Notes under the pieces: model-generated
What the model was told of the DNA's origin: nothing
Seen by the model: only the letters and a program-made list of their open reading frames with translations
Databases searched by the model: none
In this document: positions 7,972-58,030 of the stretch, piece by piece
Numbering within the stretch: position 1 is the stretch's first letter
Layout: every line of letters begins with the position of its first letter
Position numbers and translations under genes: made by a program
NCBI GenBank assembly: GCA_020847715.1
Contig: JADLBM010000014.1
Span: 14,420-78,419 of the forward strand
DNA: 64,000 bases
Direction: 5' to 3'
Source: Candidatus Yanofskybacteria bacterium
GTDB taxonomy: Bacteria > Patescibacteriota > Minisyncoccia > 2-02-FULL-40-12 > GWA2-44-9

Positions 7972-7973
7972 AC

Positions 7974-10900
7974 ATGCCGACGACACCGGAATTCGAACGC
8001 CGCTACGGGATGCTGAATCCCCGCCAGAAGGAGGCGGTTGATGCGATTGACGGTCCGGTGATGGTTATCGCAGGTCCCGGCACGGGAAAGACAACCATCC
8101 TCACGCTTCGTATTGCGAATATTCTTACGAAGACGGACACACCGCCCGACGCCATTCTCGCGCTGACATTCACCGAATCCGGTGCCGCAGAAATGAAAGC
8201 GCGCCTCGCCGTGTTCATCGGAACCGACGCGTATCGCGTCACGATGACGACATTCCACTCCTTCTGTAATGGCATTATCCAAGAGTACCCAGAATCGTTT
8301 GGGGCGCTCGCAGGGGCGGCATCGCTTGCGGAGACCGACCAAGCAGTCCTTGTGCAGGAACTCATCGATACGACCGCTGGGCTTGAGCTGTTACGGCCAG
8401 TGAACGCACCCGATTTGTACTTGAAGGCCGTACTTGCGAGCATCAACACGCTGAAGCGGGAGGATGTGGAGCCGGAACGACTACGGCAGATCGCCGAGCA
8501 GCAGGAGCGCGCCGTGATGACCGCCGACGACGTGTACCACGAAAAGGGTGCATATAAAGGAACAATGAAGGGCGTGTACAGCGATGCGTTGAAGCAGGCT
8601 TCGAAACTGAAAGAACTTGCGGCGGTGTATCAGGCGTACCAGCACGCACTTCGGGAGCGAAAGCTGTACGACTACAACGATATGGTTATGGAGGTGGCGC
8701 GCACGCTTCGCACTGACGAGGAGCTACGACTTCTCCTGCAGGAGCGATACCACTATTTCTTGGTGGACGAGCATCAGGACACGAACAATGCACAGAACAC
8801 GGTCATTGAGCTCCTTGCATCATTCTGGGAGCGGCCGAATCTGTTTGTAGTCGGCGATGCGAAGCAGGCGATCTATCGCTTCCAAGGTGCGTCTACGGAG
8901 AATTTTACCTATTTCCAAAACAAGTATCAGGAAGTTCGCCTCATCGAACTTGATGCCAATTATCGGTCGAGTCAGGCGCTTCTTGACGCGGCCCATGGTG
9001 TGCGGCCGTCGGGAGGAGATGGTCTCCACGCGCAGAGCGCACATCCGGACGCACTCATTAGTCTGCTCGCCTGTAGTGATCCTGATGCGCAGTCGTGGAT
9101 CGTCACGCAACGGATCCGCGAGTACATCGAGCAGGGGACTCCGCCCGAACAGATCGCCGTTCTGTATCGCGACAATGCCGACGGGCTCGCACTTGCGGAG
9201 TTCTTGCAGCGGGCAAATATTCCGTATGCCATATCGGCGACGCGCGACATGACCGCCGACCCACTCATGCGGCAGCTCCTCGCTATTCTCGATGCGGCGG
9301 CGCAGTTCGGGAGCGCGGAGGCGCTGTATCCGGCGCTTCACGCTCCGGTGCTGGCAATTGATCCGCTTGACCTCTACAAGCTCATTGACGCGTGCCGTCA
9401 GGGGCGGAATCCCTACGATGTCATGCGGTCTCCCGCGCTCATGCATCAGGCGGGCATCGATGATGTGCCGCGGATGCAGGCGCTCGCGGCGTCGCTGGCG
9501 CGATGGTCGCGCCAGATGCGGCAACCGACCGCGGCGGAAACGCTTGAGCTGGTCGTTCGAGAGTCCGGCGTGCTGGATGCTGCGGTGGCAGATGCAGATT
9601 CCCATGACCGGCTCGCCCTCCTCCATGGGCTGTATGACCGAATTCGTTCCCATGTCCAGCGCGATCGGGCGCTCACGCTTGCAGCATTCGTAGAGCATCT
9701 CGCATTCCTCCGTGAACGCGGCATCTCGCTCACCGCCAAAGGCGGTGGCGTCGCGCCGGGGAAAGTGCGCCTCATGACCGCGCACAAGAGCAAGGGACTG
9801 GAGTTCGATGTCGTGGTTCTCATTGATTGCGTTGATGGTCACTGGGGCTCGCGCACTCGCCGTTCGCTCATCAAGCTGCCACCCGAGGTGTTCGCAAAGC
9901 CTGCCGGTGCGGTCCCGAGCGCACCTGAGGGAGACGACGAAGAGCGGAACCTGTTCTATGTTGCTCTCACGCGTGCCCGTCGGCAGGTCATCCTCGCGCT
10001 CCCTGAGCGAGACCGCGACGGGAATGAACAGCTTCCGGCGCGCTACATTGCCGATATTCGTCCTGAGCTCGTCGTGCGTCCCGAGATGGCTGCCGCGGAG
10101 GAGGCGTGGACCGCTGCGCGCGCAGTTCGGTTCGCGGCGGCGCCGGAGCGTGCCGCACAAATTGGCGAGAAGGCGTTCTTGAACGACCTCTTTACGCGAC
10201 AGGGACTCTCGGTTACCGCGTTGAACAACTACCTCGCCTGTCCGTGGCGGTATTTCTATTCAAACCTTGTCCGCATTCCTGAGGCGCCCGCATTCGCCCT
10301 CATGTACGGCAATGCAGTGGATCGCGCGCTGCAGGAGTATTTCGACAAGCTTCGAGAGGGAGAGCGCGGAACGAAAGCAGAGCTTTGCGCAATCTTTGAG
10401 CGCTTCCTCGCGGACCAACCGCTACAGACGGTGGAGCTCGCTCGGGCGCGTGCCAGAGGCATTGCCGCATTGAGTGCGTACTACGATCGGTACCACAGTG
10501 AATGGCATGCGAACATCATCAACCAACTTCGCATCCCTGCCGTCGAGCTTGCGGATGGACTCATCCTGAATGGGAAAATAGACAAGGTAGAGCTCCTCGA
10601 TGCCTCGGGAGCAGTTCGCGTCATAGATTACAAAACCGGCGCGCCGAAAAGTCGCGGGCACATTGCCGGAACCACAAAGAGCGGGGATGGGAACTACCTT
10701 CGCCAACTCGTGTTCTACAAACTGCTCTTAGATCGCTGGCAGAATGGCCGCTACCGCACGGGAGTCGGAGTCATCGACTTTGTCGAGCCGGATGAACGAG
10801 GAAAGCTCCACCGTGAGGAATTCGCGCTGACGCCTGCGATGGTTTCCGAGCTTGAGGCAATCATTCAGAGGGTCGCGCAGGAGATTCGCGAGCTCACCTT

Positions 10901-10985
10901 TTGGAATGCCCGATGCGATGACCGTGATTGCCGCTCCTGCGCGCTTCGTGCAGGAATGAAGGGGTTGCCGCCTGCTTCGATATAA
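7974..10985 (+). CDS. ATP-dependent helicase/nuclease: UvrD/PcrA-like SF1 helicase fused to a C-terminal PD-(D/E)xK (Cas4/AddB-type) nuclease domain
   Basis: Walker A GPGTGKT, and UvrD motifs TFHSFC and VDEHQDTN. The C-terminus has CPWRY…DYKTG…CDDRDCRSC, a four-Cys nuclease signature. Start re-set to MPTTPEF. Confidence 0.85.
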   Translation: MPTTPEFERRYGMLNPRQKEAVDAIDGPVMVIAGPGTGKTTILTLRIANILTKTDTPPDAILALTFTESGAAEMKARLAVFIGTDAYRVTMTTFHSFCNGIIQEYPESFGALAGAASLAETDQAVLVQELIDTTAGLELLRPVNAPDLYLKAVLASINTLKREDVEPERLRQIAEQQERAVMTADDVYHEKGAYKGTMKGVYSDALKQASKLKELAAVYQAYQHALRERKLYDYNDMVMEVARTLRTDEELRLLLQERYHYFLVDEHQDTNNAQNTVIELLASFWERPNLFVVGDAKQAIYRFQGASTENFTYFQNKYQEVRLIELDANYRSSQALLDAAHGVRPSGGDGLHAQSAHPDALISLLACSDPDAQSWIVTQRIREYIEQGTPPEQIAVLYRDNADGLALAEFLQRANIPYAISATRDMTADPLMRQLLAILDAAAQFGSAEALYPALHAPVLAIDPLDLYKLIDACRQGRNPYDVMRSPALMHQAGIDDVPRMQALAASLARWSRQMRQPTAAETLELVVRESGVLDAAVADADSHDRLALLHGLYDRIRSHVQRDRALTLAAFVEHLAFLRERGISLTAKGGGVAPGKVRLMTAHKSKGLEFDVVVLIDCVDGHWGSRTRRSLIKLPPEVFAKPAGAVPSAPEGDDEERNLFYVALTRARRQVILALPERDRDGNEQLPARYIADIRPELVVRPEMAAAEEAWTAARAVRFAAAPERAAQIGEKAFLNDLFTRQGLSVTALNNYLACPWRYFYSNLVRIPEAPAFALMYGNAVDRALQEYFDKLREGERGTKAELCAIFERFLADQPLQTVELARARARGIAALSAYYDRYHSEWHANIINQLRIPAVELADGLILNGKIDKVELLDASGAVRVIDYKTGAPKSRGHIAGTTKSGDGNYLRQLVFYKLLLDRWQNGRYRTGVGVIDFVEPDERGKLHREEFALTPAMVSELEAIIQRVAQEIRELTFWNARCDDRDCRSCALRAGMKGLPPASI

Positions 10986-11012: not shown

Positions 11013-11023
11013 GTGAAGAACTG

Positions 11024-11140
11024 GCTACTTGCTGGGCGAGGACGCTCGGCAGAGCTTCTTCTGGATGGGTCTGCGAACCAGCGCCCACCACAGGATGCGC
11101 ATGCCGATTGCGGCGAGCGCGACGGCGACGATCCAGGTCA
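11024..11140 (-). CDS. possible small membrane peptide (MTWIVAVALAAIGMRILWWALVRRPIQKKLCRASSPSK)
   Basis: Read by eye. Single TM helix plus basic tail. Below the ORF-track size cutoff. Confidence 0.3.
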
Positions 11141-11150
11141 TGTTCTCCTC

Positions 11151-11342
11151 CTACTGCCGGAGCAGGTTCTGGAGACGGGCAGCTTCCGCTTCCTCCTGCT
11201 GTCGGCGCACCTTCGCGGCGTGCTCGGCGGTGTAGGTCCGCCGCGCCCACCGACTCAACGACACGGCGGCGAAGACGGCTCCTGCGATGAGCGGGAACGC
11301 GACGGCGGTGACCGCCGCCACCTTCTTTTGGCCCTCGGTCAT
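11151..11342 (-). CDS. possible small membrane protein (63 aa, MTEGQKKVAAVTAVAFPLIAGAVFAAVSL…)
   Basis: Internal ATG of ORF 11151..11699. One TM helix plus a charged coiled tail. Confidence 0.35.
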   Translation of the reverse strand: MTEGQKKVAAVTAVAFPLIAGAVFAAVSLSRWARRTYTAEHAAKVRRQQEEAEAARLQNLLRQ

Positions 11343-11412
11343 ACGACCTCCTTCGAAATCCATTATAGCATATACAACAGAAAAGTCAACTATCACGCAA
11401 CCGGACCACCCG

Positions 11413-11492
11413 GCCCCTGGAAGGGTCAGTTGCTGTACCAAAGCCGAGCGGACAGCGATGGCGGCGTTACGCACTCTGACCCGAGTAGGGGC
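11413..11492 (+). repeat. copy 1 of a conserved ~60-nt structured element (core …TCAGTTGCTGTACCAAAGCCGAGCGGACAGCGA…TTACGCACTCTGAC…), enclosed by the stem gcccct/aggggc
   Basis: Near-identical to 58061..58145. Two nested internal stems (GUCAG/CUGAC, GCUGU/ACAGC) plus a distinct but complementary outer stem. Confidence 0.6.
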
Positions 11493-11570
11493 TGGGTGGG
11501 GAGGAGGCGTGAGCGACCGTCCACATGTGCGGCGTTGGCGCCTGTAACAGGTTGCGCTATACTGGGGTAC

Positions 11571-13586
11571 GTGAAGATCATCAACGTCCTGAAGGACGAT
11601 ACGCTCGCAGAGATCCTCGATCTGTTCCGGCAGGCACCTGCCGGCGAGGTCATCCTCGTCTTGCCCCGTGTCGGCAAGCTCTTTCGTACCGAAGACCACT
11701 TTGCGGCGTTCGCATCGGAGGCCTCACAGGGCGGAAAAACCGTTTCCTTGCTGACTGCGAACGCAACCACCGCGCAACTAGCGCGGAAGTTCGGATTTAC
11801 GGTTATGGCGTCGGGAAATGTGAAAAAGCCCGTTGCGGTGAAGGGAAAGAAGAAGGCGACCGCGCCCACTGCTCAGCTTGCGACCGCGCCGCTTCCCGCG
11901 GATGACGACATTCAAGACTTCGGAGACAACGCCGATCTTGGCGATGTTGTCCTCCCTTCGGATCAAACGATGGGCATTAGTCCGAGCGGCTCCGATGAAG
12001 TAGATCCCCTCCACGGCATGACGCTCCTCGATGAAGAGGGGAATCCAGTAGACGAGAACGAAGATGGGGAGCCCGACCAGCCCGACAACGACGACCTCAC
12101 CATCGGCGACGAATCGGCCGACCTGCTTGCGGCGTCCGAGGATGCGCCCACCGCAACGCTCGCTGCCGCAGTCGATGGCATCCGGCACGGCACCACTCGG
12201 AAAACCATCACACCCGCCGCTCGAGCAGAGCGTCCCATGAGGGTACCCGTTCAGCGTAGTGCCGCTCGCGATGACCTCGACTACATCGACGCCATGTGGC
12301 GCGATAAGGTTGGCCGCTCTTCGGCCCGCCCGCTCGCATCCTCACGACTTGCGGCGCGCATCCCGTCGTTCCTATCGCGCGTATTCGGAGGTGCGGCGCG
12401 TTCGCTAGGCACCGTTCCGACATCAAAGCGTGTGGCTGCTGGTATGTTAGGGGGCACCATCATTGTTCTCGCGGCTGTCGTCTATATGGTGACCGGTTCC
12501 GCACGGGTTTCCCTTGTTCCGGTTGCGCACTCGGTGGATGCTCAATACACCGTGCAGGCATCGGATGTCTTTTCGAGCATCGACGACACATTCCTGAAGA
12601 TTCCGGGGCAGCTCCTCGAGGTCAGCAAGACGCAGTCCGTTACGGTTCCTGCAACGGGTACGCGGGATGTTGCCTCGAAGGCACGGGGGAGCATCGTCAT
12701 TTCCAACGAGTACTCGTCATCCCCGCAAACGCTCATCGCTACCACCCGTTTCCGCTCCGAGGACGGCCACATCTTCCGCACGCTCCAGTCGGTCGTCGTC
12801 CCTGGAAGCACCATGGAAGCCGGAAAGCCGGTTGCGGGGACGGTTCGTGTTGAGGTTATCGCCGACAAGCCGGGTCCGGAATACAATGTTCCCGCTGGAA
12901 AGTTTGTCATTGCGGCATTCCTCGAGAAGGGCGACACCGAGAAGGCCGGCAAGCTGTACGGAACGTCGTTACAGACGATGTCTGGCGGCGCGAGCGGACC
13001 GTCCAAAGTCGTCACGCAAGCTGATTTTGACCAAGCCAAAGCGCTCGCAACGGCGGGTGTAAAAGAACAGATCAAAGCCGCGCTTGCCGCGCAGGGGAGC
13101 ACGCTCATGGTCATTCAAGCGGATGCGCCCACGTTCGCAGAGGCGCAGGCGACTGCCCAGCCGGATGACGCGGCAGAAACCGTCACCGTCACCGCATCCG
13201 CGCGACTCAAGACCATCGCATTCCGAGCGGAAGACCTCAACGAGCTCATCCGCCGATTTGCGCTGAAGAAGGATCGTCTTGTTGTCGATCCTGGAGCACT
13301 CAAGGCTGAATACACCGAGGTGCGCTTCAAGGAGGACATGGGGATTTTGAGTTTCACACTCTCGCTGACCGGCTCTGGCTATCAGCCGATTGACGTATCG
13401 GCAATTCAGAAGGATGTCGCTGGCAAGAATGGCAGTGAGATTCGTGAGTATTTCCGCCAACAGAGCGAGATTCAGTCTGCCACCATCACGCTGTCGCCAT
13501 TCTGGGTGCGAAGTGCGCCTGCAAAATCGGGCAGAATCCACGTCGATATCGTATTCCCAGCCGAAGGCGAGACATCCACGGAATAG
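11571..13586 (+). CDS. large hypothetical membrane protein (~670 aa): cytoplasmic N-domain, one TM helix, large extracytoplasmic domain
   Basis: Long ORF. The first in-frame start after the upstream stops is GTG at 11571 (VKIINVLKDD…). TM segment LGGTIIVLAAVVYMV. No recognisable catalytic motif. Confidence 0.55.
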   Translation: MKIINVLKDDTLAEILDLFRQAPAGEVILVLPRVGKLFRTEDHFAAFASEASQGGKTVSLLTANATTAQLARKFGFTVMASGNVKKPVAVKGKKKATAPTAQLATAPLPADDDIQDFGDNADLGDVVLPSDQTMGISPSGSDEVDPLHGMTLLDEEGNPVDENEDGEPDQPDNDDLTIGDESADLLAASEDAPTATLAAAVDGIRHGTTRKTITPAARAERPMRVPVQRSAARDDLDYIDAMWRDKVGRSSARPLASSRLAARIPSFLSRVFGGAARSLGTVPTSKRVAAGMLGGTIIVLAAVVYMVTGSARVSLVPVAHSVDAQYTVQASDVFSSIDDTFLKIPGQLLEVSKTQSVTVPATGTRDVASKARGSIVISNEYSSSPQTLIATTRFRSEDGHIFRTLQSVVVPGSTMEAGKPVAGTVRVEVIADKPGPEYNVPAGKFVIAAFLEKGDTEKAGKLYGTSLQTMSGGASGPSKVVTQADFDQAKALATAGVKEQIKAALAAQGSTLMVIQADAPTFAEAQATAQPDDAAETVTVTASARLKTIAFRAEDLNELIRRFALKKDRLVVDPGALKAEYTEVRFKEDMGILSFTLSLTGSGYQPIDVSAIQKDVAGKNGSEIREYFRQQSEIQSATITLSPFWVRSAPAKSGRIHVDIVFPAEGETSTE

Positions 13587-36018: not shown

Positions 36019-36759
36019 TTAGATGAGCTGCGAAAGCCAGTCGCGGTGTTCCCACTCCCAGAGGGTCTTCGCGGCGAGGAATGCCTGAAGATCGTGGGGA
36101 TGCGCGCCAAGCTCGCTGAATTCGAAGCGTCCCTCCATCGGACCCCATTGGTGCGTGCATCCTTTTCCACCGGCGCTCACACGGAACATGCCACCCTTGG
36201 TGCGAAGCGAGACGCCGCAGAGCTGGCAGGTACGGCATTGGTCGAGGCGAAGGACCCAGCTTGTCGTCGGGCGCTCAACATTCGGTATCTCTGTGAGTGC
36301 ACTCAGGTATGCAGCCGTCTGCATGGTGTAATCGCGATACACCGCCTTACTGGTTTTGATGTCGAGCACTCCGACAACGCCATTGATGCGAGCAAGCGCG
36401 TCGATGGTGCCGGCATAGCGGTGCGTACGACTCACAACCCGCTCTTCGATCATGAGCGGCTCAACGTGGTTGTTACGGAGAAATTCACGGAATGCATCGA
36501 CCGACGGCTCAATAACTGAGGGGACCGCCTCGTGCGTACCACGAAGGATTGCCTCCACGGCCTCATGGACCATCGTGCCCTCGCGCGCACTGGCTTCTTT
36601 TGCATCGTCGGCCGCCTTGAAACTCCGCATGCCTCCGTAGTAGCGGTAGAGCGCCGGCTTCGCCTTGATGGACACGATTGATGTGACCCGAGGGTACCAG
36701 ACGCCATCAATGGTGTACCCGGCTCGCTCTTGGAATTCTGCCAGAGATTCGTACTCCAC
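36019..36759 (-). CDS. PD-(D/E)xK nuclease, Cas4/RecB-like
   Basis: GTIDALARINGVVGVLDIKTSK…YTMQTAAYLSA (D…D/ExK…QxxxY) plus a Cys cluster (CRTCQLC…C). Confidence 0.7.
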   Translation of the reverse strand: MEYESLAEFQERAGYTIDGVWYPRVTSIVSIKAKPALYRYYGGMRSFKAADDAKEASAREGTMVHEAVEAILRGTHEAVPSVIEPSVDAFREFLRNNHVEPLMIEERVVSRTHRYAGTIDALARINGVVGVLDIKTSKAVYRDYTMQTAAYLSALTEIPNVERPTTSWVLRLDQCRTCQLCGVSLRTKGGMFRVSAGGKGCTHQWGPMEGRFEFSELGAHPHDLQAFLAAKTLWEWEHRDWLSQLI

Positions 36760-37440
36760 CTATTTGATATTGATGTACTCGTTCCAGTACGCAAAAAGCT
36801 CCGCCGTTGCACGAATATCGTCGAAGCAGTACCGCGCGATGTCGAGGTATTTGCCCTCCTTAAAGAAGCGGGGGACCTCATACCCCGTAATTCCACCTTC
36901 CTTGCTGGAGCGGATCCCAAGCGCCTGACACCACATATGCAAACTCATCGTGCGGCGCACCGCACCGAAGAATCCAAGACGGTCGTACAGATCGATATGC
37001 TCATCTCCGTAGCGATAGGGAACGAGGTTCTTTGTCGGGCGGACCTTGTTGACCGCAGAGCGGACCATGAGGAACGGACAGTCGAACGAGCGTCCGTTGA
37101 ATGTGACGAACTGGTCGTAGAACGCAATGGTGCGCCAGAACTTCTCAAGTACCTGCGCCTCGGTTCCGGAGGCGTAGACGATGCCATTCTCCTCAAATTC
37201 TGACGGCTCGACACCCGGCGCTTGGTAGTACACCGCACCCTTGCCGGTGTCAGGATTCAAGAGCGCAATAGCCACCACCTGTCCCGTAAGAGGGGAGAAG
37301 CTCAGCTGTTCTGGCACCAACTCCTTCTCTTCTGGAGTGCGGGCGGCCTTCAGGAGGTACTCCTGCGCCTGCTCATCGAGAGAATCAAAGTCGACTCCAA
37401 CGGTTTCGATGTCGAATACGACGCGTGGCATAGGGCTCAT
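36760..37440 (-). CDS. 3'-5' exonuclease, DEDD type, related to the PolB exonuclease domain
   Basis: VVFDIETVG (Exo I), FNGRSFDCPF (Exo II), YCFDDIRAT (Exo III). Start re-set to MSPMP. Confidence 0.7.
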   Translation of the reverse strand: MSPMPRVVFDIETVGVDFDSLDEQAQEYLLKAARTPEEKELVPEQLSFSPLTGQVVAIALLNPDTGKGAVYYQAPGVEPSEFEENGIVYASGTEAQVLEKFWRTIAFYDQFVTFNGRSFDCPFLMVRSAVNKVRPTKNLVPYRYGDEHIDLYDRLGFFGAVRRTMSLHMWCQALGIRSSKEGGITGYEVPRFFKEGKYLDIARYCFDDIRATAELFAYWNEYINIK

Positions 37441-37502
37441 CGTACCGCTTGCCAGGGGGTGGCGCAAGGAGTACCATTCCGCCCAATAGTCGGAGGTGGA
37501 CC

Positions 37503-37934
37503 ATGTTGGCAATAGCGCTTCTGCTACTTGTTGCCGGGGCACCTGGAGACCACCAAAAGAAGAGCACAAACCGTTCGGTATCGGCGTCGCTCCAGCGCCT
37601 TGCAAAGGAGCCGGTCAGAATCCTTCGGATACCTTCGCGTCCGGTTGTCATGTCGCCTCGCCCAATTGAGGTGGAACTCCATGTGACCGTGCGAAGCACT
37701 TCTGAAGAGCTCTGGTGTCCTGGCATTGAAATTGAGTGGGGGGACGGTGAGCTGTCCGCTGTCACACCCGACTGCGACCCGTTTGAGCAGGCGAGTGACG
37801 AGGACAAGCTGGAGCAGCGGTACGGACCGTTCTCGCATCTCTACCGAGTGAAGGGGCAGCACACGATTCTCGTGAACGTCATGAAGAACGGGAAGAGGAT
37901 TCGGCAGGTGACGAACAAGCTCGACTACCGCTGA
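37503..37934 (+). CDS. hypothetical secreted protein
   Basis: N-terminal signal-like helix. No recognisable motif. Confidence 0.45.
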   Translation: MLAIALLLLVAGAPGDHQKKSTNRSVSASLQRLAKEPVRILRIPSRPVVMSPRPIEVELHVTVRSTSEELWCPGIEIEWGDGELSAVTPDCDPFEQASDEDKLEQRYGPFSHLYRVKGQHTILVNVMKNGKRIRQVTNKLDYR

Positions 37935-39592: not shown

Positions 39593-40888
39593 TTATACGA
39601 GCTTCTTCAATGCGTTTGCGATACGTGTTCGAACCTGTTCTGGGCCGATGACCGCCGCAATATCGAGAGGGCCGGCACTGTTTTGCCGACCGGAGAGGGC
39701 GACCCGCAACGGCCAGTAGATACTCCCCTTCTTGCCCGCGAAACGGTCCGCGGCGGCAGCATCAAGTGCGGCCTGCGTGAGCTCTCCAGATTCTGCAAGC
39801 TGGGCGCAGAGCTCCAGCGCTCCGCGCGTTGTCTCAAGAGCATCATCTTTCCATGCCAGCAACGCACCCTCGTATTCCGGTTCCTCCCAGAAGTACGAAA
39901 ATTGAGCAATATCGGTCAGGCGCTCGAGCCGCTCAGTCATGAGCGGAACCGCGGCGTCAGGAAGGTCGGGCTTTCCGATAAGCACCTTGAATGTTTCAGA
40001 CGGAAGTCGCTTCAGGTATTGCGCGTTGGTCCAGTTGAGCTTTTGCTGGTCAAACACCGCGCCAGAGGTGTGCACGCGCGACAAATCGAACTGCTCCGCC
40101 ATGGCACGCATATCAAGGAGCTCCGCATCGTAGGTGTACCCCAACTGTCCCATGAACGACACAAGCGCTTCCGGAAGGTAGTCGGTTTGATAGTCGGCAA
40201 TGTTCGTCGCTCCGTGACGCTTCGACATCTTCGAGCGATCAGGACCAAGGATAAGCGGCAAGTGCGCAAAAACGGGCGGAGTTGCCTGGAGCGCCTCGTA
40301 GATAAGAAGCTGCTTCGGCGTGTTCGAGATATGATCCTCACCGCGAATGACATGCGTAATCTCCATATCGAGATCGTCCACGACGACGGCAAAGTTATAG
40401 AGCGGCGTATCGAGATCCTTCGCAAGCACAACTTGACCGACATGCTGCGCTCGGACCGCAACCCTGCCGCGAATGACATCGTCGAATGCAATCTCCCGTT
40501 CCGAATCAGTGGGCGGCGTCAGCGCGATAACACGGTCCCGTGCGGTACGTCCATCACGCTCCATATCCGCTTTCTCCTCGTCGCTATACTCGCGCCAAAA
40601 TGCGGAACCACTCTCCAATAGGCGCTCGAGGTACGCGCGATACACCGGAAGGCGCTCCGTCTGTCGTATGATGTGCTCATTATCCCAATCGAGCCCAAGC
40701 CACTGAAGACCCTCGATGATGTTCGTTTCGTACTCCTTTTTGCTGCGCTCGAGGTCGGTATCTTCGATGCGAAGGATAAATTGGCCGCCATGGTGACGAG
40801 CAAAGAGCCAATTAAAAAGCGCCGTACGGGCGGTTCCAATATGGAGATTGCCGGTCGGGGATGGGGCGATGCGTACGTTGACGGTCAT
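39593..40888 (-). CDS. gltX: glutamyl-tRNA synthetase
   Basis: HIGTARTALFNWLFARHHGG class-I signature and a KMSKRH motif. Start re-set to MTVNVRIAPSPTG. Confidence 0.9.
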   Translation of the reverse strand: MTVNVRIAPSPTGNLHIGTARTALFNWLFARHHGGQFILRIEDTDLERSKKEYETNIIEGLQWLGLDWDNEHIIRQTERLPVYRAYLERLLESGSAFWREYSDEEKADMERDGRTARDRVIALTPPTDSEREIAFDDVIRGRVAVRAQHVGQVVLAKDLDTPLYNFAVVVDDLDMEITHVIRGEDHISNTPKQLLIYEALQATPPVFAHLPLILGPDRSKMSKRHGATNIADYQTDYLPEALVSFMGQLGYTYDAELLDMRAMAEQFDLSRVHTSGAVFDQQKLNWTNAQYLKRLPSETFKVLIGKPDLPDAAVPLMTERLERLTDIAQFSYFWEEPEYEGALLAWKDDALETTRGALELCAQLAESGELTQAALDAAAADRFAGKKGSIYWPLRVALSGRQNSAGPLDIAAVIGPEQVRTRIANALKKLV

Positions 40889-40995
40889 GGATACAGCATA
40901 CGAGAAAAACCCGCATCGTTCAAACCGGAAGGGCATCACAAGGCAAAAGACGTCAAGACGTCGCAATCCCCTACAAGTATGCTTCAATACAGACA

Positions 40996-42891
40996 ATGTT
41001 CGTCATCCGCGTCGTCCCGTTGGCATCGCTTCCGGCGACCGCTCCGGCGGTGCTGGATTACTTCTGGAACACTCCCCTGCCCGCAGGTGCGGTTGTGCGT
41101 ATTTCGTGGGGTCACCGAAGCTCGTCCGCGGTTGTCCTTCACTCGCTCGACGTTCGTCAGGCGAAGCTCGCCGTAAAAAGCTCGGACTTTGCGCTCAAAC
41201 GGATAGACGCCATCCTTATCGAGGATCAACAAGCGACGCACGGACAGCTCGCCCTCGCACAGTGGCTCGCGACACAGTACGCCGCATCACTGGCAACATC
41301 GTTGAAGACGGTACTCCCGCCGTTCTTTGGAAAGCGCGGGCATCGCATCGCCCTCCCCGTAGAATCCGAACAGAAGGGTGACGCACCACCCGGCACATTC
41401 CTCCTTACCCAGCCGGATACCGCCCTCACCGAGCTTCGCGCCCATATCAAGCACGCCAAGGGACCACTCGTGGTCATCGCGCCCGAGCGGTCAATCGCCG
41501 AGCATCTTGCAGAAGCACTCTCCGACGAGCACCCGCTCCTCATGCATAGCGCGCTCTCGACGAAAGCTCATGCCGCAGTCTACCGAGCGGTCGCTTCCGG
41601 TGATGCGCGGGTCGTGATCGGCACTCGTGGGGCGCTATTTCTCCCATGGACTGCGCTCGCCCACATCGTCGTCGAAGACCCACTCAACGAAGCGTATAAG
41701 AGCGAAGCGGCACCGCGCTACAACACGCCCGATGTCGCCCGCCAGCTCGCCACGCTGCACGGAGCCGCACTCACGTGGCTCTCGCCTGCCATTAGTACCG
41801 TCCATTTCCATCTCCGTGAAACAGGAGTTCTCCGCATTGCCGACCGCAAGCCCCACTGGCCGACCGTGACGCAGGTCTCGATGGACCGTGAACAGCTCGA
41901 CGGGAACCGTTCATTCCTTTCCCGCGCCGTCCAAGATGCGATTCTCGATGCGTATGAACAGCAGCGCCCACTCCTGCTCATGTCGGCACGGAAAGCATAT
42001 GCAACGGCAATGCGGTGCGTACGGTGTCATGCCGCTCCCCAGTGCGACACCTGCCACATCCCGCTCCGTCTGCACCGTACGGTGGAGGATATGCTCGTGT
42101 GCTACCACTGCGGCACATTTGTATCCGTTCCAAAACAGTGCCCATCCTGCACGGCCGGGGCATTGAAACCAGCCGGAATACCGGGGAGTCAGAAGATTGC
42201 CGAAGCGGTCGCAACGCTTCTGGACCGGCATGGCTACCCGAAGCTAGTCCCTCCAATCCTCGACGGAGATCTTGTGCGGAGCGAGGCCAACGAGCGCGCC
42301 ATGCTCGCTCAGTTCGATGCGATGGAGCGGCCACTGATGGTTGCATCATCCATGATTTTCGGGCACCGCTACCGGCGCACATTTGATACGGTCATCGTCT
42401 CGCATCTGGACGCGCTTGGGTTCAGCCCTGACTTCAGGACGAACGAGCGGCTCGTTGCCCAGCTCGAGCGGCTTGCCGATTTTATGCCGTCTCGCATGAT
42501 CATCCAGCACTGGCACGATGAGAGCCAGCTCGGAGACCTCTCTGCACGATCGTGGGAAGCGCTCTATCGGGACGAGCTTACCCAACGCAAAATGCTCCGA
42601 TGGCCACCGTATGCCCGCATCGTTAAGCTGACCGCCCGACATCGCGACCGGCGAGCACTCGGTCGACTGACCGCCATCGGTGCGGATCGGCTGAAACGCG
42701 CCATCGAGCATATCGGCGCGCGCGGAACTCAGATTCTCGGACCGTCGCCGGCGCTCGTCGAACGGGCACGGGGACAGTGGACCCAGCATTTGATTCTCAA
42801 GAGCACACTGAGCGGGCACCGGCTCACCGAACTGCTCGGATACCTTCCGGTCGGGTGGACGGTAGATGTTGACCCAAGGTCAATCACATGA
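40996..42891 (+). CDS. priA: primosomal protein N' (PriA)-like; Walker A/B appear degenerate
   Basis: PriA architecture and Cys-rich zinc-binding region (CVRCHAAPQCDTCH…CYHCG…CPSC). Has LTQPDTALTE where GxGKT is expected, and VEDPLNEAYK where DExH is expected. Confidence 0.7.
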   Translation: MFVIRVVPLASLPATAPAVLDYFWNTPLPAGAVVRISWGHRSSSAVVLHSLDVRQAKLAVKSSDFALKRIDAILIEDQQATHGQLALAQWLATQYAASLATSLKTVLPPFFGKRGHRIALPVESEQKGDAPPGTFLLTQPDTALTELRAHIKHAKGPLVVIAPERSIAEHLAEALSDEHPLLMHSALSTKAHAAVYRAVASGDARVVIGTRGALFLPWTALAHIVVEDPLNEAYKSEAAPRYNTPDVARQLATLHGAALTWLSPAISTVHFHLRETGVLRIADRKPHWPTVTQVSMDREQLDGNRSFLSRAVQDAILDAYEQQRPLLLMSARKAYATAMRCVRCHAAPQCDTCHIPLRLHRTVEDMLVCYHCGTFVSVPKQCPSCTAGALKPAGIPGSQKIAEAVATLLDRHGYPKLVPPILDGDLVRSEANERAMLAQFDAMERPLMVASSMIFGHRYRRTFDTVIVSHLDALGFSPDFRTNERLVAQLERLADFMPSRMIIQHWHDESQLGDLSARSWEALYRDELTQRKMLRWPPYARIVKLTARHRDRRALGRLTAIGADRLKRAIEHIGARGTQILGPSPALVERARGQWTQHLILKSTLSGHRLTELLGYLPVGWTVDVDPRSIT

Positions 42892-43731: not shown

Positions 43732-44721
43732 ATGTCTATCGTTATTCCTGCCCCGAAATCTGCGGTACGCGTCTCAGTAGCATCTCGCTCGGAGGCGCGC
43801 ATTGTGTTCTTCGGTACGCCACTCTTCGCCGTACCCGCGTTGCGGCGACTCACCGCCGATGGCTGGCCAATTGCCGCCGTCATCACTGCACCCGACCGTC
43901 CGGTCGGTCGTCGCATGCTTCTCACTCCGAGTCCCGTCAAGAGCGCAGCGCTTGAGCTGGGCATCCCCGTGTGGACACCCCAAACACTGAAAGACGACGA
44001 AGTGTTCGTCCGATTCTCAGACCTCCAGCCGACGATTGGCATCGTGGTTGCCTACGGAAAACTCATCGGACAACGCTACCTCGAAGCGGTCTCGAGGGGG
44101 TTTCTGAATATTCACCCCTCACTGCTTCCGGCATATCGTGGGCCTTCCCCCATCCAGTCTGCTATTCTCGACGGCTGCTCGAATACCGGCGTCTCCCTCA
44201 TGCAACTGGATGCCGAAATGGACCACGGCCCCGTGGTCGCACAGGAGTCATGGGCTATCCCTCGAGGCTTTGACGCGCCGATGTGTGAAGATGAACTCTC
44301 GCACCTCGGGGCCGATCTCCTCGCGCGCTCCCTGCAGAACTACCTCGACGGTACGCTCGTGCCTATTCCCCAGAACGACGCCCTCGCGACATTCACGAAG
44401 AAGTTCGAGCGGCCCGACGGAAGAATTGTTTGGGCACAGGCCGCTACTGAGATTAGCAACCGCATCCGTGCGCTTGCGGCGAATCCGGGCACATGGACCA
44501 CCTGGAATGAGCACACCCTCAACATCGCGCACGCCCACCCGATAGACAGCGCATCCACCGAAGCCCCCGGAACCGTTGTTCTGCACGGCTCCGAAGTGTG
44601 CGTCGTGTGTGGCACCGGTATGCTTGCGCTGGAAACCATTCAACTCGAAGGCGGCACCCGACAACAGGCACGCGACTTCGTAAACGGTCGCCCCGCGTTC
44701 GTGGGAGCAGTTCTGTCTTGA
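43732..44721 (+). CDS. fmt: methionyl-tRNA formyltransferase
   Basis: IVFFGTP…NIHPSLLPAYRG formyltransferase core and C-terminal domain. Confidence 0.9.
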   Translation: MSIVIPAPKSAVRVSVASRSEARIVFFGTPLFAVPALRRLTADGWPIAAVITAPDRPVGRRMLLTPSPVKSAALELGIPVWTPQTLKDDEVFVRFSDLQPTIGIVVAYGKLIGQRYLEAVSRGFLNIHPSLLPAYRGPSPIQSAILDGCSNTGVSLMQLDAEMDHGPVVAQESWAIPRGFDAPMCEDELSHLGADLLARSLQNYLDGTLVPIPQNDALATFTKKFERPDGRIVWAQAATEISNRIRALAANPGTWTTWNEHTLNIAHAHPIDSASTEAPGTVVLHGSEVCVVCGTGMLALETIQLEGGTRQQARDFVNGRPAFVGAVLS

Positions 44722-56057: not shown

Positions 56058-57425
56058 ATGGCGAACGTACTCCCCGACACCACTCCCCCGCAAAACCTCG
56101 ACGCCGAGCGTTCGCTCTTGGGGTCGCTCCTGTCAGACCGCGAGGCCATCAACAAGGTCATCGATATGGTCAACGCGGAGCACTTCTACCAGCGGAATCA
56201 CCAGCTCATCTGGACCGCACTCTCGAGTCTCTGGGAACACCATGAGAACATCGACATCCTCTCCGTCTCCACGAAGCTCGGCGACATGGGGCACCTTGAT
56301 GCCATCGGCGGAGTCGCCGCGCTCACCGCGCTTGCGAGCGAAATTCCGACCGCTGCGCATGTACAGACCTACGCGCGCATCGTCCAACGGAAGAAATCCC
56401 TCCGCGACCTGCTCGACGTCTCGCATCGCATTAAAGCGCTCGCGTACCGCGAAGACGACGACATCGACGCCGTGCTCGGCGAGGCGGAACAGCAGCTCTT
56501 CTCGGTCACCCAGAAAACCCTCAGTAATAAGTTTGATGCCCTCGCCGGAGAACTCGACCGTGCCATGGAGCGCATCCAGACCCAAGACGACGGTCAGCTC
56601 CGCGGCGTACCCACAAAGCACACAAAGCTGGATCAGACACTCGGCGGATTCCAGAAGTCCGACCTTATCATCCTCGCCGCCCGTCCATCGGTCGGTAAAA
56701 CCGCCTTCGCAATTGACATCGCCCGCCGTGTTGCCGAGAGTCAAACACCCGTCGGCATCTTCAGCTTGGAAATGAGCGTCGACCAAGTCGTCGACCGTCT
56801 CATCGCCGCAAAGGCGCGCGCTTCGTTGTGGCGTCTCCGCACGGGAAAGCTCTCCCATGAAGGCGAGCACAACGACTTCCTCAAGATTACCAACGCTATC
56901 TCTGAGCTCCGCGATATGCCCGTCTTCATCGACGATACGCCAGGCCTGAATGTGATGCAGATGCGCGCCATGGCGCGGCGCCTGAAAGCCGAGCACGGCC
57001 TCGGCATGCTCATCGTGGACTACTTGCAGCTCATGAGTGCCCGCCGCAACTACGACTCCCCCGTCCAGCAGGTCACGGAAATCAGCCGCGGCCTCAAAGC
57101 GCTGGCGAAGGAGCTGCAGATTCCTGTCATCGCCCTCTCTCAGCTCTCGCGCGCCGTCGAGAACCGCGAAGGCAACCGGCCTCGCCTGTCCGACCTCCGC
57201 GACTCCGGCTCCATCGAGCAAGACGCCGACGTGGTCATGTTCATCCACCGCGACGACAAGATCAACTTCCAACGCGCCCAGGAGCAGGGCCGGCAAAACC
57301 TCGCCCAGCTCGTCATCGCCAAACACCGCAACGGCCCCACCGGCGAGATTGATTTCCACATCAACCCTGAAAACCTCGAGTTCTCCGAGGTCGACACCGT
57401 GCACACCGACTCTGACTTCCTGTAA
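56058..57425 (+). CDS. dnaB: replicative DNA helicase DnaB
   Basis: DnaB N-domain plus RecA-like domain (ILAARPSVGKT, LIVDYLQLM). Confidence 0.9.
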   Translation: MANVLPDTTPPQNLDAERSLLGSLLSDREAINKVIDMVNAEHFYQRNHQLIWTALSSLWEHHENIDILSVSTKLGDMGHLDAIGGVAALTALASEIPTAAHVQTYARIVQRKKSLRDLLDVSHRIKALAYREDDDIDAVLGEAEQQLFSVTQKTLSNKFDALAGELDRAMERIQTQDDGQLRGVPTKHTKLDQTLGGFQKSDLIILAARPSVGKTAFAIDIARRVAESQTPVGIFSLEMSVDQVVDRLIAAKARASLWRLRTGKLSHEGEHNDFLKITNAISELRDMPVFIDDTPGLNVMQMRAMARRLKAEHGLGMLIVDYLQLMSARRNYDSPVQQVTEISRGLKALAKELQIPVIALSQLSRAVENREGNRPRLSDLRDSGSIEQDADVVMFIHRDDKINFQRAQEQGRQNLAQLVIAKHRNGPTGEIDFHINPENLEFSEVDTVHTDSDFL

Positions 57426-57430
57426 TCCTC

Positions 57431-58030
57431 ATGGATCCCTCCTTTGAACGTATCGCAAAACTCCTTCAGACACTCCCCGGCGTCGGCCCGCGCGCGTCGG
57501 TGCGGCTCGTGCTCGCGCTCCTCGACCGCCCACAGGCACAGCTCGACGAGCTGGGGAGCGCCATTAGCCAGCTCAAAGAGCGCGTTCGCCAGTGCACCGA
57601 GTGCTTCAATGTGAGCGAGGACGAGCTGTGTGGTATCTGCCGCGACCGGCGACGGGACGCCCGCTCGCTACTGGTCGTCGAGAAAATCACCGATCTGCAA
57701 TCCGTCGAGCGCGCCGGACTCTGGCGCGGCCTCTACCATGTCCTCGGCGGCGCCATTTCGCCGGTGGATGGCGTAGGACCGGAACACCTCCGCATTCGCG
57801 AGCTCACCGAACGCGTCGACCGCTTTGTCCAGCAAGCAGGGGCCGTGGAAATCGTCCTCGCCACGAACCCGACCTCCTCGGGAGAAATGACCGCACTCTA
57901 CATTCGCGACCTCTTCGCACGCGTCCCGGGCATCAAGGTCACGCGCCTTGCCCGCGGACTTGCGACCGGCACGCATCTCGAATACGCCGACGAAATCACG
58001 CTGAAGCATGCGCTCGACAGTCGGAAGTAG
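57431..58030 (+). CDS. recR: recombination protein RecR
   Basis: LPGVGPRAS HhH, CTECFNVSEDELCGIC zinc finger, Toprim domain. Confidence 0.9.
   Translation: MDPSFERIAKLLQTLPGVGPRASVRLVLALLDRPQAQLDELGSAISQLKERVRQCTECFNVSEDELCGICRDRRRDARSLLVVEKITDLQSVERAGLWRGLYHVLGGAISPVDGVGPEHLRIRELTERVDRFVQQAGAVEIVLATNPTSSGEMTALYIRDLFARVPGIKVTRLARGLATGTHLEYADEITLKHALDSRK

What the first reader, a model, noticed from the sequence alone, without database searches (positions are those of the whole stretch)
40996..42891. PriA homolog with degenerate Walker A and DExH motifs
The protein has PriA length and order and the Cys4-type zinc-binding insert (CVRCHAAPQCDTCH…CYHCG…CPSC). Where helicase motif I (GxxGSGKT) should be, it reads LLTQPDTALTE. 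Where motif II (DEEH) should be, it reads VVEDPLNEAYK. An ATPase-dead PriA would be unable to unwind but could still load DnaB (located 13 kb downstream) through structure-specific DNA binding. This could be an adaptation of a streamlined replisome.
Basis: partly seen in the sequence, partly recalled or inferred. Interest (0 to 1): 0.55.

Follow-up and report, generated by a model that had tools for sequence, protein, structure and literature searches.

The report
ATPase-dead PriA restart protein in Parcubacteria
This gene encodes a genuine PriA replication-restart protein whose ATP-binding helicase motifs have been erased; at least about 240 related Parcubacteria-type protein clusters share this state, and it was already known from Deinococcus, so the protein most likely recognises stalled forks passively and does not act as a motor.

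Summary
ORF 40996-42891 (+) is a 631-aa PriA orthologue from a Candidatus Yanofskybacteria MAG. It sits in the classic priA-def-fmt position. It keeps the 3'-end-binding domain, both RecA-like lobes, the eight-cysteine zinc region and the C-terminal domain (AF2 pLDDT 92; TM 0.85 to E. coli PriA 8FAK). Every nucleotide-handling motif is gone: Q is absent, motif I reads TQPDTA, DEEH reads EDPL, SAT reads SPA, and QxxGRxGR reads LADFMPS. No GK[ST], DExH or GRxGR occurs anywhere in the protein. The winged-helix domain is also absent. DNA-contact elements survive (Ia, IV, part of V, part of the aromatic-rich loop). dN/dS is about 0.13, and DnaB and an AddA-like helicase in the same window keep normal Walker motifs. 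The state is not peculiar to this genome. About 135 of the 150 closest 50%-identity clusters and all 104 further relatives examined lack the motifs; they form essentially one clade, and every specific label is Parcubacteria. The concept itself is not new, because D. radiodurans PriA is an experimentally shown pseudohelicase and E. coli PriA K230R supports restart. Best reading: an ATP-independent fork-recognition scaffold that recruits DnaB (inferred). This is a new member of a known kind, of moderate interest.

The parts
40996..42891 (+). priA orthologue encoding a 631-aa PriA pseudohelicase (stop codon included)
   Evidence: ORF; Pfam PriA_3primeBD and PriA_C; TIGR00595 at 4e-65; PDB PriA at 6e-31; AF2 pLDDT 92.1, and Foldseek TM 0.85 to 8FAK_H; identical to NCBI MAG protein IT405_02160 from Candidatus Yanofskybacteria
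40996..41319 (+). 3'-end-binding domain (aa 1-108); the LDY at residues 20-22 aligns with the E. coli FDY16-18 pocket
   Evidence: Pfam PF17764, residues 14-108; Y22 is invariant in alignments A2 and A3, and G31, V34 and G39 are conserved; alignment to E. coli
41320..41394 (+). 25-aa linker (aa 109-133) in place of the winged-helix domain and Q motif (E. coli residues about 111-215 absent)
   Evidence: Alignment to E. coli PriA; DSSP shows no secondary structure between H99-106 and E134-137, and pLDDT is 66 for residues 121-130; median spacer is 22 aa in this clade, 41 in canonical short PriAs and 101 in long PriAs
41395..41427 (+). Former motif I / Walker A position (aa 134-144, TFLLTQPDTAL): strand b1 runs almost directly into helix a1, with no Gly-rich loop and no Lys
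   Evidence: Alignments; DSSP shows E134-137 then H140-153; no GK[ST] anywhere in the protein
41470..41493 (+). Motif Ia retained (aa 159-166, VVIAPERS; P163 invariant)
41665..41733 (+). Former motif II (DEEH replaced by EDPL, aa 227-230) followed by a partly retained aromatic-rich loop (YK..PRY..D, aa 234-246)
   Evidence: PDB alignment; role of the loop in E. coli PriA from PMC5175346 and PMC10175261
41773..41799 (+). Former motif III (SAT replaced by SPA; aa 260-268)
42016..42150 (+). Cysteine-rich region, two Cys4 zinc sites (C341, 344, 350, 353, 369, 372, 382, 385), inserted in helicase lobe 2
   Evidence: All eight Cys are invariant across 61, 37 and 77 sequences and align with E. coli C436-C479
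42334..42369 (+). Motif V remnant (GTQM replaced by ASSM here, and A[TS]Q in most relatives)
42424..42450 (+). PriA-specific PDFRxxER element retained (E. coli D567, R569, E572 and R573 equivalents)
42460..42495 (+). Former motif VI (QVAGRAGR replaced by RLADFMPS): both arginines gone and the segment shortened
42607..42876 (+). PriA C-terminal domain (aa 538-627), ending in a conserved DVDP
   Evidence: Pfam PF18074; invariant P537, P538, D626 and P627
42904..43377 (+). def (peptide deformylase), 12 nt downstream of priA, probably co-transcribed
   Evidence: Pfam Pep_deformylase at 6.6e-42; spacing; order conserved in the nine of ten related loci that extend past priA
43732..44721 (+). fmt (methionyl-tRNA formyltransferase), completing the priA-def-fmt block
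   Evidence: Pfam Formyl_trans_N and Formyl_trans_C; synteny
39593..40891 (-). gltX (glutamyl-tRNA synthetase), transcribed divergently from priA
   Evidence: Pfam tRNA-synt_1c at 2e-84; found upstream of priA in nine of ten related loci
56058..57425 (+). dnaB replicative helicase, the presumed client; Walker A ARPSVGKT intact, so it also serves as an internal control
   Evidence: Pfam DnaB and DnaB_C; motif check

Best explanation
The gene is the organism's PriA orthologue, and the protein has become a pseudohelicase. It keeps the PriA fold and the modules that recognise an abandoned replication fork. These are the 3'-end-binding domain for the nascent leading strand, the lobe-1 loop that wedges at the fork junction, and the Cys-rich zinc region, lobe 2 and C-terminal domain, which in E. 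coli PriA encircle lagging-strand ssDNA. It has lost everything needed to bind and hydrolyse ATP: the Q motif, the P-loop, the DExH box, motif III and the motif VI arginines. It has also lost the winged-helix domain. It therefore cannot translocate or unwind. It most likely works as an ATP-independent, structure-specific landing pad that marks forks or D-loops and recruits DnaB, either directly or with the resident loader. There are no PriB/DnaT-type partners: the E. coli PriB-docking residues are not conserved. What is shown here: the identity, the fold, the loss of the motifs, the retention of DNA-contact elements, purifying selection, and clade-wide conservation. What is inferred: the absence of ATPase activity, fork binding, and DnaB recruitment, by analogy with D. 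radiodurans PriA and E. coli PriA K230R.
For: Identity and orthology: Pfam, NCBIfam and PDB hits. AF2 gives pLDDT 92.1 and pTM 0.91. The Foldseek top nine hits are all PriA (TM 0.85 to 8FAK_H), and the next family, Mfd, reaches only TM about 0.3. The M23-gltX | priA-def-fmt-efp order is conserved in the related GTDB loci as far as each locus extends. No second PriA lies in the window.

Loss of the ATP site: motif-by-motif alignments. None of the patterns occurs anywhere in the protein. The b1-a1 loop is only about 2 residues in the model. Of 105 positions that are at least 90% conserved in canonical PriAs, 64 are lost, including every Q, I, II, III and VI residue. The 41 kept positions fall mostly in the 3'BD, motif Ia (P163), motif IV (R332), motif V (T451), all eight Cys, PDFRxxER and the CTD. 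By established SF2 knowledge, this is the split between NTP motifs and nucleic-acid motifs.

Functional, not decaying: dN/dS is 0.12-0.17 with dS near saturation. Full-length conservation reaches down to 32% identity. The gene lies 12 nt upstream of def.

Specific to PriA: DnaB and the AddA-like helicase keep Walker A and B.

Clade-wide: about 135 of the top 150 50%-identity representatives and 104 of 104 further relatives lack the motifs. 165 degenerate sequences form one NJ clade that contains a single canonical sequence. Specific labels are Yanofskybacteria, Taylorbacteria, Portnoybacteria, Paceibacterota and the Parcubacteria group.

Precedent: D. radiodurans PriA has no ATPase or helicase activity but binds ssDNA, forks and DnaB (PMC4504706). 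priA300 K230R is restart-proficient (PMC5778457).
Against: No biochemical data exist for this protein or for any Parcubacteria PriA, so loss of ATPase, fork binding and DnaB interaction are all inferred. Only 64 kb of the genome was visible, so a second, canonical PriA or another fork-remodelling helicase elsewhere cannot be excluded. The acidic pair of Walker B survives in shifted form (E227, with D228 invariant), and TQPDTA/EDPL are themselves strongly conserved in the closest subclade. The old cleft may therefore have a new role that I cannot define. Absence of the winged-helix domain removes one parental-duplex contact used by E. coli PriA, so fork specificity may differ. No loader (DciA, DnaC or DnaI) or SSB gene was found in the window to support a pathway.
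Confidence: 0.72

Rival explanations
1. A repurposed PriA-derived DNA-binding protein. The scaffold is kept, but its job is no longer replication restart. Possible jobs include helping DnaB load at the origin, protecting or marking forks, or acting in recombination or repair. In this reading the conserved TQPDTA/EDPL cleft forms a new interaction or ligand site.
For: The former motif I and II positions are not merely relaxed in the window's subclade. They are among its most conserved segments (TQPDTA in most of P0001-P0027; E227 at 92%, D228 at 100%, P229 at 95%). The PriB-docking residues are not conserved. The winged-helix domain is absent.
Against: The fork-recognition elements are exactly the ones retained: the Y22 pocket of the 3'BD, part of the aromatic-rich loop, the CRR and the CTD. 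The gene stays at the ancestral priA-def-fmt locus as the only PriA homologue seen. Across the wider degenerate clade the cleft sequences differ freely (EDPL, DDES, DEEE, DKEE, DDVL), which argues against a common new ligand site. PriB is naturally absent from most bacteria (PMC4504706).
Confidence: 0.15
2. Still an active ATPase/helicase that uses a non-canonical nucleotide site.
For: An acidic pair (E227-D228) persists at the Walker B position, and motifs Ia, IV and V are partly kept.
Against: There is no P-loop: no Lys, no Gly-rich loop, and a loop of about 2 residues between b1 and a1. The Q motif is absent, and there are no motif VI arginines. In E. coli PriA the single change K230R already abolishes ATPase (PMC5778457). 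The cleft sequence varies freely among relatives.
Confidence: 0.03
3. A decaying, functionless relic of priA (a pseudogene in the making), or an assembly artefact.
For: NCBI annotates it only as 'hypothetical protein'. It scores below the TIGR00595 cut-off.
Against: The reading frame is intact over its full length in hundreds of independent MAGs. dN/dS is about 0.13. The eight Cys and many structural residues are invariant. The fold prediction is very confident. The operon position is conserved.
Confidence: 0.02
4. A degenerate paralogue that coexists with a canonical, active PriA encoded elsewhere in the genome.
For: Only 64 kb of the genome could be inspected. Canonical short PriAs do exist in Patescibacteria-labelled genomes (P0201; P0183 comes from an unlabelled uncultured-bacterium aquifer record).
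Against: The degenerate gene occupies the ancestral priA-def-fmt locus in every related locus that extends past priA. All PriA hits labelled Yanofskybacteria, Taylorbacteria, Portnoybacteria or Paceibacterota are of the degenerate type. Degenerate and canonical forms separate as clades and are not interleaved. From general knowledge, PriA is normally single-copy.
Confidence: 0.06

Closest known systems
Deinococcus radiodurans PriA pseudohelicase (Lopper, Boone & Morrow 2015, PMC4504706), and Deinococcus-Thermus PriAs generally
   Same: A bona fide PriA orthologue with poor matches to helicase motifs I and II. It is expected (and for D. radiodurans shown) to lack ATPase and unwinding activity while keeping DNA binding. 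The organism has no PriB or DnaT. The proposed role is ATP-independent replisome reloading through direct contact with DnaB.
   Different: The phylum is different (Patescibacteria/Parcubacteria), and the degenerate PriAs group with canonical CPR-type short PriAs as nearest relatives. This suggests an independent origin, though no Deinococcus sequence was available here to test that. The erosion goes further. According to the paper, the Deinococcus-Thermus proteins still have a recognisable Walker A box with Lys replaced by Arg. Here the loop itself is gone, and motifs Q, III and VI and the winged-helix domain are missing too. There is no biochemistry for this clade.
E. coli PriA K230R (priA300) and other ATPase-dead PriA mutants
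   Same: These show that a PriA without ATPase, helicase or translocase activity can still assemble a primosome and support restart (PMC5778457). This is the functional model for the present protein.
   Different: They are laboratory point mutants in an otherwise complete PriA that works with PriB and DnaT, and they fail in the PriA-PriC pathway. The present protein is a natural, long-established form. It lacks the PriB-docking residues (E. coli D438, S481, T482, H483 correspond to R, A, G, A here).
Canonical PriA (E. coli and K. pneumoniae; PDB 4NL4, 6DGD, 8FAK; TIGR00595)
   Same: The domain order is the same (3'BD, lobe 1, lobe 2 with inserted CRR, CTD), as is the fold (TM 0.85 to 8FAK_H). 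So are the eight Zn-binding Cys, motif Ia, the motif IV Arg, PDFRxxER, and the C-terminal PP and DVDP signatures.
   Different: There is no winged-helix domain and no Q, I, II, III or VI motif. The protein is about 100 aa shorter and scores below the TIGR00595 trusted cut-off (220 against 230 bits).
Short canonical PriAs of other Patescibacteria-type genomes (e.g. P0183, P0201, P0165)
   Same: These are the closest canonical relatives. They are also short (653-680 aa) with only about 41 residues between the 3'BD and lobe 1, which leaves no room for a winged-helix domain.
   Different: They retain GxTGSGKT, DEEH, SAT and QxxGRxGR. The winged-helix loss therefore appears to predate the ATPase loss.
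Actinobacterial PriA (PRK14873-type; P0059-P0062)
   Same: These also lack the Walker A Lys, DExH and the motif VI arginines in the alignments. They are similar in length (613-662 aa), and only the 3'BD is detected by Pfam.
   Different: They are very distant from this clade (21-22% identity; Kimura distance above 1.4 to everything else). They have a different motif V region. This was seen only in passing and not analysed further.

Membership tests
PriA / primosomal protein N' (homology family) | N-terminal 3'-end-binding domain (Pfam PF17764) | tested here: met
   PF17764 at E = 7e-9 and 35.9 bits, above the 22.7-bit cut-off, covering residues 14-108. The E. coli Y18 equivalent (Y22) is invariant.
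PriA / primosomal protein N' (homology family) | Two RecA-like SF2 lobes with the PriA-specific overall fold | tested here: met
   AF2 pLDDT 92.1. The Foldseek top nine hits are all PriA, with TM 0.85 and rmsd 4.3 A to 8FAK_H. phmmer aligns residues 181-606 to E. coli PriA at E = 6e-31.
PriA / primosomal protein N' (homology family) | Cysteine-rich region with two Cys4 zinc sites inserted in lobe 2 | tested here: met
   C341, 344, 350, 353, 369, 372, 382 and 385 align with E. coli C436-C479 and are invariant in all alignments.
PriA / primosomal protein N' (homology family) | PriA C-terminal domain (Pfam PF18074) | tested here: met
   PF18074 at E = 4e-9 and 37.5 bits, above the 26.9-bit cut-off, covering residues 538-627.
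PriA / primosomal protein N' (homology family) | Curated equivalog score (NCBIfam TIGR00595, replication restart helicase PriA) | tested here: not met
   220.2 bits against the 230.35-bit cut-off. The match starts at profile position 30, so the Walker A end of the model is unmatched. The shortfall reflects the lost motifs and does not put homology in doubt.
PriA / primosomal protein N' (homology family) | Winged-helix domain between the 3'BD and lobe 1 | tested here: not met
   E. coli residues about 111-215 have no counterpart. A 25-residue linker without secondary structure takes their place. The domain is also missing in the canonical short PriAs, so it is not universal to the family.
PriA as an active SF2 helicase | Motif I / Walker A (GxxGSGKT) | tested here: not met
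   The position reads TQPDTA, and no GK[ST] occurs anywhere in the protein.
PriA as an active SF2 helicase | Motif II / Walker B (DEEH) | tested here: not met
   EDPL lies at the aligned position, and no DExH occurs anywhere in the protein.
PriA as an active SF2 helicase | Motif VI arginines (QxxGRxGR) and the Q motif | tested here: not met
   Motif VI is replaced by RLADFMPS and shortened. The Q-motif segment is deleted.
PriA as an active SF2 helicase | DNA-dependent ATPase and 3'-5' unwinding activity | not testable with these tools
   This requires purified protein. Activity is predicted to be absent.
PriA pseudohelicase (as defined for D. radiodurans PriA) | PriA orthologue with non-consensus Walker A and Walker B | tested here: met
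   The definition comes from PMC4504706.
PriA pseudohelicase (as defined for D. radiodurans PriA) | No ATP hydrolysis or duplex unwinding in vitro | not testable with these tools
   Shown for D. radiodurans PriA only.
PriA pseudohelicase (as defined for D. radiodurans PriA) | Retained ssDNA and fork binding, and interaction with the cognate DnaB | not testable with these tools
   Only indirect support is available: conservation of the 3'BD, Ia, IV, V, CRR and CTD elements, and the presence of an intact dnaB in the window.
PriA pseudohelicase (as defined for D. radiodurans PriA) | Common descent with the Deinococcus-Thermus pseudohelicases | not tested
The nearest relatives found are canonical CPR-type PriAs, which favours an independent loss.

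The most novel reading that the evidence does not exclude
PriA lost its motor once, early in the Parcubacteria (Paceibacteria) radiation, so a large part of bacterial diversity restarts replication with an ATP-independent PriA. The protein lacks the winged-helix domain and may be fixed in the fork-bound, pore-open arrangement that E. coli PriA adopts only on DNA (the model fits 8FAK much better than the apo structures). If so, it would be a minimal, constitutively 'switched-on' DnaB-recruiting scaffold. Together with Deinococcus-Thermus and apparently Actinobacteria, this would overturn the textbook statement that PriA helicase activity is conserved across bacteria apart from Deinococcus.
Probability: 0.4. 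Interest if true: 0.55.

Novelty: new member of a known kind. Interest (0 to 1): 0.4.

Why it matters
[quoted passage not shown] The data here indicate that a very large, separate radiation (Parcubacteria) carries PriAs with the ATP site erased, and actinobacterial PriAs look similar. Motor-less PriA would then be a recurrent and successful solution, not a curiosity. That supports the view that PriA's essential job is structure-specific fork recognition and helicase recruitment, not unwinding. It also offers a naturally minimised PriA (no winged-helix domain, no ATP site, no PriB interface) as a simple system for studying how DnaB is reloaded in the many bacteria that lack PriB, DnaT and PriC. 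In practical terms, these proteins fall below the TIGR00595 cut-off and are sometimes annotated as 'hypothetical protein'. Pathway surveys of CPR genomes may therefore wrongly score PriA as absent, or wrongly score a helicase as present.

Tried and rejected
(1) I looked for an intact Walker A, Walker B or motif VI elsewhere in the protein by pattern search and found none.

(2) I looked for a second PriA in the window and in ten related loci, using HMMs of both canonical and degenerate PriAs against six-frame ORFs. Only the one gene per locus was found.

(3) I considered general sequence decay or poor assembly. This is rejected because DnaB and the AddA-like helicase keep their motifs and dN/dS is about 0.13.

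(4) The word-indexed search with the close-clade profile returned essentially the same set as the single-sequence search (one new protein) and added nothing useful. Only the exhaustive profile search and a profile of diverse representatives revealed the breadth of the clade.

(5) Attempts to label the more divergent subgroups taxonomically gave only assembly accessions or no names (cluster look-ups; contig look-ups). Membership of lineages outside Parcubacteria therefore remains open.

(6) Literature searches combining PriA with Patescibacteria, Candidate Phyla Radiation or Parcubacteria found no description of this. A search for actinobacterial PriA motif loss was uninformative.

(7) I scanned the remaining window ORFs for DciA, DnaC/DnaI, SSB or other restart partners and found none.

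Full report
**What is there.** The ORF at 40996-42891 (+) encodes a 631-aa protein starting MFVIRVVPL. It is identical to an NCBI MAG protein annotated only as 'hypothetical protein IT405_02160 [Candidatus Yanofskybacteria bacterium]'. NCBI taxonomy places that organism in the Patescibacteria group > Parcubacteria group. Pfam detects only the two PriA-specific end domains, PriA_3primeBD (residues 14-108) and PriA_C (538-627), and no DEAD or Helicase_C domain. NCBIfam TIGR00595 (replication restart helicase PriA) matches at E = 4e-65, but the 220 bits fall below the 230-bit cut-off and the match starts at model position 30, past Walker A. E. coli and K. pneumoniae PriA structures match at E about 6e-31 over residues 181-606. 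An AlphaFold2 model built on 61 homologues is very confident (pLDDT 92.1, pTM 0.91). Its nine best PDB matches are all PriA, with TM 0.85 and rmsd 4.3 A to 8FAK chain H. The next family (Mfd) reaches only TM about 0.3.

**Context.** The gene is transcribed divergently from gltX. def follows 12 nt after its stop, then fmt and efp. The order M23 peptidase-gltX | priA-def-fmt-efp recurs in ten loci from GTDB species genomes of Patescibacteria, as far as each locus extends. More distant relatives still have fmt next to priA. HMM searches of six-frame ORFs find no second PriA in the window or in those loci. This is therefore the orthologous priA, at what I recall is the ancestral priA-def-fmt position (the recollection of B. 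subtilis and other bacteria is my own knowledge).

**The observation checked.** Aligned with E. coli PriA (sequence taken from NC_000913) and with 21 canonical PriAs, the protein shows the following.
- E. coli residues about 111-215, which hold the winged-helix domain and the Q motif, are replaced by a 25-residue linker.
- Motif I, GVTGSGKT, is replaced by TQPDTA. The two alignments differ by about 4 residues in register, but neither places a Lys or a Gly-rich loop there. In the model, strand 134-137 runs into helix 140-153 with only two residues between them, so there is no room for a phosphate-binding loop.
- Motif II, DEEH, reads EDPL.
- Motif III, SAT, reads SPA.
- Motif VI, QVAGRAGR, reads RLADFMPS, with a 5-residue deletion directly downstream.

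They are invariant in every alignment made.

**What is kept and what is lost.** Of 105 positions that are at least 90% conserved in canonical PriAs, the window's clade keeps 41.
- Kept, among others: the E. coli Y18 equivalent of the 3'-end pocket and nearby 3'BD glycines; the motif Ia proline (100%); the motif IV arginine (100%); the motif V threonine; part of the aromatic-rich loop after motif II (Y-K ... R-Y ... D); all eight Cys; the PDFRxxER element; and the C-terminal PP and DVDP signatures.
- Lost: every residue of motifs Q, I, II, III and VI.

By established knowledge of SF2 helicases, Q, I, II and VI bind and hydrolyse NTP, III couples hydrolysis to movement, and Ia, IV and V contact the nucleic acid. 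The pattern is what one expects of a helicase that has kept DNA binding and given up ATP. In E. coli PriA the aromatic-rich loop wedges into the fork junction, and the CRR, lobe 2 and CTD form the pore for lagging-strand ssDNA (PMC5175346 and PMC10175261). The E. coli PriB-docking residues (D438, S481, T482, H483) correspond to R, A, G and A here, consistent with an organism that has no PriB.

**Functional, not decaying.** dN/dS against the two closest relatives is 0.12-0.17, with dS near saturation, so the true ratio is probably lower. Full-length homologues extend down to 32% identity. DnaB (56058-57425) and an AddA-like helicase-nuclease (7878-10985) in the same window have normal Walker A and B motifs. 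The erosion is therefore specific to PriA.

**How widespread.**
- A word-indexed search found 37 clusters at 90% identity of the same type, cleanly separated from canonical PriAs: at least 733 bits against at most 293 bits with the clade profile.
- An exhaustive HMMER search of 1.84 billion representatives with the clade profile showed much more. The 150 best 50%-identity clusters are almost all 600-690 aa. By alignment, about 135 of them lack the Walker A lysine and the motif VI arginines, and only nine are fully canonical; those nine appear only at about 400 bits or lower.
- A few look intermediate, with DEEH kept but I and VI lost (P0128, P0135, P0198).
- The former motif II differs between subgroups (EDPL, DDES, DEEE, DKEE, DDVL and others), as expected from an old loss followed by drift. 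The window's own subclade has fixed TQPDTA and EDPL.
- A further search with a profile of 77 diverse degenerate representatives gave 920 hits at E <= 1e-30. All 104 new proteins among the 120 listed lack Walker A and DExH.
- Source names, where present, are either generic ('bacterium', Patescibacteria group) or specific: Candidatus Yanofskybacteria (several RIFCSP genomes), Taylorbacteria, Portnoybacteria, Paceibacterota and the Parcubacteria group. Some TPA MAGs are labelled 'Saccharibacteria', which I regard as unreliable.
- Canonical short PriAs also occur in Patescibacteria-labelled genomes (P0201). P0183 comes from an aquifer 'ACD' record labelled only 'uncultured bacterium'.
- A rough neighbour-joining tree made without the motif columns places 165 degenerate sequences in one clade with a single canonical intruder. 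The canonical short PriAs are the nearest outgroup.
- Those canonical short PriAs already lack room for a winged-helix domain: the spacer is about 41 residues, against about 22 in the degenerate forms and about 101 in long PriAs.
- The likely order of events is therefore loss of the winged-helix domain first, then loss of the ATPase, essentially once.

**Mechanism proposed.** The protein is an ATP-independent fork-recognition scaffold. [quoted passage not shown] Lobe 1 and its loop sit at the junction. The CRR, lobe 2 and CTD hold lagging-strand ssDNA. The complex then recruits DnaB directly or through the resident loader. Sequence identity, fold, motif loss, retention of DNA-contact elements, selection and distribution are shown here. 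Lack of ATPase activity, fork binding and DnaB recruitment are inferred, from two precedents.
- D. radiodurans PriA hydrolyses no ATP and unwinds no DNA, but it binds ssDNA (Kd about 215 nM), forks (about 108 nM) and its own DnaB (PMC4504706).

As with D. radiodurans, it remains open whether another helicase remodels forks that carry duplex on the lagging arm, or whether only forks with an ssDNA gap are used.

**Comparison with what is known.** Lopper et al. (2015) established the concept of a 'PriA pseudohelicase' for Deinococcus-Thermus. The present clade is a separate lineage, and the erosion is more complete. In Deinococcus-Thermus the Walker A box is still recognisable, with Lys replaced by Arg. 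Here the loop is gone, together with Q, III, VI and the winged-helix domain. I found no paper in the searchable library that describes this for Patescibacteria, CPR or Parcubacteria, and a 2017 review still treats Deinococcus as the sole exception. Actinobacterial PriAs recovered as distant hits (P0059-P0062) also lack these motifs. From memory, protein databases flag mycobacterial PriA as lacking detectable helicase domains; I did not verify this. I therefore class the finding as a new member of a known kind. The mechanism class is known, while the lineage, the scale and the degree of erosion appear unreported.

**Caveats.** There is no biochemistry. Only 64 kb of the genome was visible. Taxon labels are sparse, so the limits of the degenerate clade within Patescibacteria are not fixed. 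The tree is a quick distance tree. No Deinococcus sequence was available to test independent origin directly. Model coordinates could not be inspected. That the model fits fork-bound 8FAK (TM 0.85) better than the apo structures, including the winged-helix-deletion crystal 6DCR (0.64-0.70), is only a hint that the CRR is predicted in the pivoted, pore-open position.

**Verdict.** Interest is moderate (0.4).

Noticed in passing
Proteins P0059-P0062 (distant hits; no window coordinates): Actinobacterial PriAs (613-662 aa; labelled 'Actinobacteria bacterium' and Dactylosporangium) also lack the Walker A lysine, DExH and the motif VI arginines in the alignments, and only their 3'BD is detected by Pfam. 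This looks like a third lineage of motif-less PriA besides Deinococcus-Thermus and Parcubacteria.
   Followed up: partly
window 40996-42891 (AF2 model m1b96f77cdffb): The predicted structure superposes much better on fork-bound E. coli PriA (8FAK_H: TM 0.85, rmsd 4.3 A) than on the apo crystal forms, including the winged-helix-deletion protein 6DCR (TM 0.64-0.70, rmsd about 9 A). This hints that the Cys-rich region is predicted in the pivoted, 'pore-open' arrangement even without DNA. It rests on a single model, and the coordinates were not inspectable.
   Followed up: no
window 41395-41427 and 41665-41703: In the window's own subclade the replacements at the former ATP site are strongly conserved, not relaxed: TQPDTA, and VEDPLxEAYKS with D228 invariant. 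Other degenerate subgroups carry quite different sequences at these positions. A subclade-specific structural or interaction role is possible but undefined.
   Followed up: partly
window 7878-10985 and 11013-13586: An AddA-like protein (UvrD helicase plus a C-terminal PD-(D/E)XK nuclease, Walker A intact) is immediately followed by an 857-aa ORF with no Pfam hit. That ORF may be a divergent AddB/RexB-type partner.
   Followed up: no
window 56058-58030: dnaB (56058-57425) is followed after 5 nt by recR (57431-58030), placing the replicative helicase next to a recombination-mediator gene.
   Followed up: no
window 36019-37605 (-): A PolB-type 3'-5' exonuclease/RNase H-fold protein (36760-37605) lies next to an ORF with a weak PD-(D/E)XK nuclease match (36019-36759).
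   Followed up: no
window 1-64000: G+C content is about 58-60% across the window. From my own knowledge this is high for a Patescibacteria genome. GC skew is persistently negative from about 26 kb to 58 kb. Many ORFs of 150-320 aa have no Pfam match, and some may be spurious ORFs typical of high-GC DNA.
   Followed up: no
L012 4001-7925; L013 4001-7399: In more divergent degenerate-PriA subgroups (assemblies GCA_041643155.1 and GCA_040961665.1) priA is still next to fmt, but def is not between them. The upstream neighbours differ too (LigT-like 2'-5' RNA ligase, WecG, Mur ligase).
   Followed up: no
L002, L004-L006, L008 (GTDB loci): Several TPA MAGs that carry this Parcubacteria-type PriA and the same gene order are titled 'uncultured Candidatus Saccharibacteria bacterium'. 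Their 49-59% identity to the Yanofskybacteria protein and the identical synteny suggest a taxonomic mislabel.
   Followed up: no
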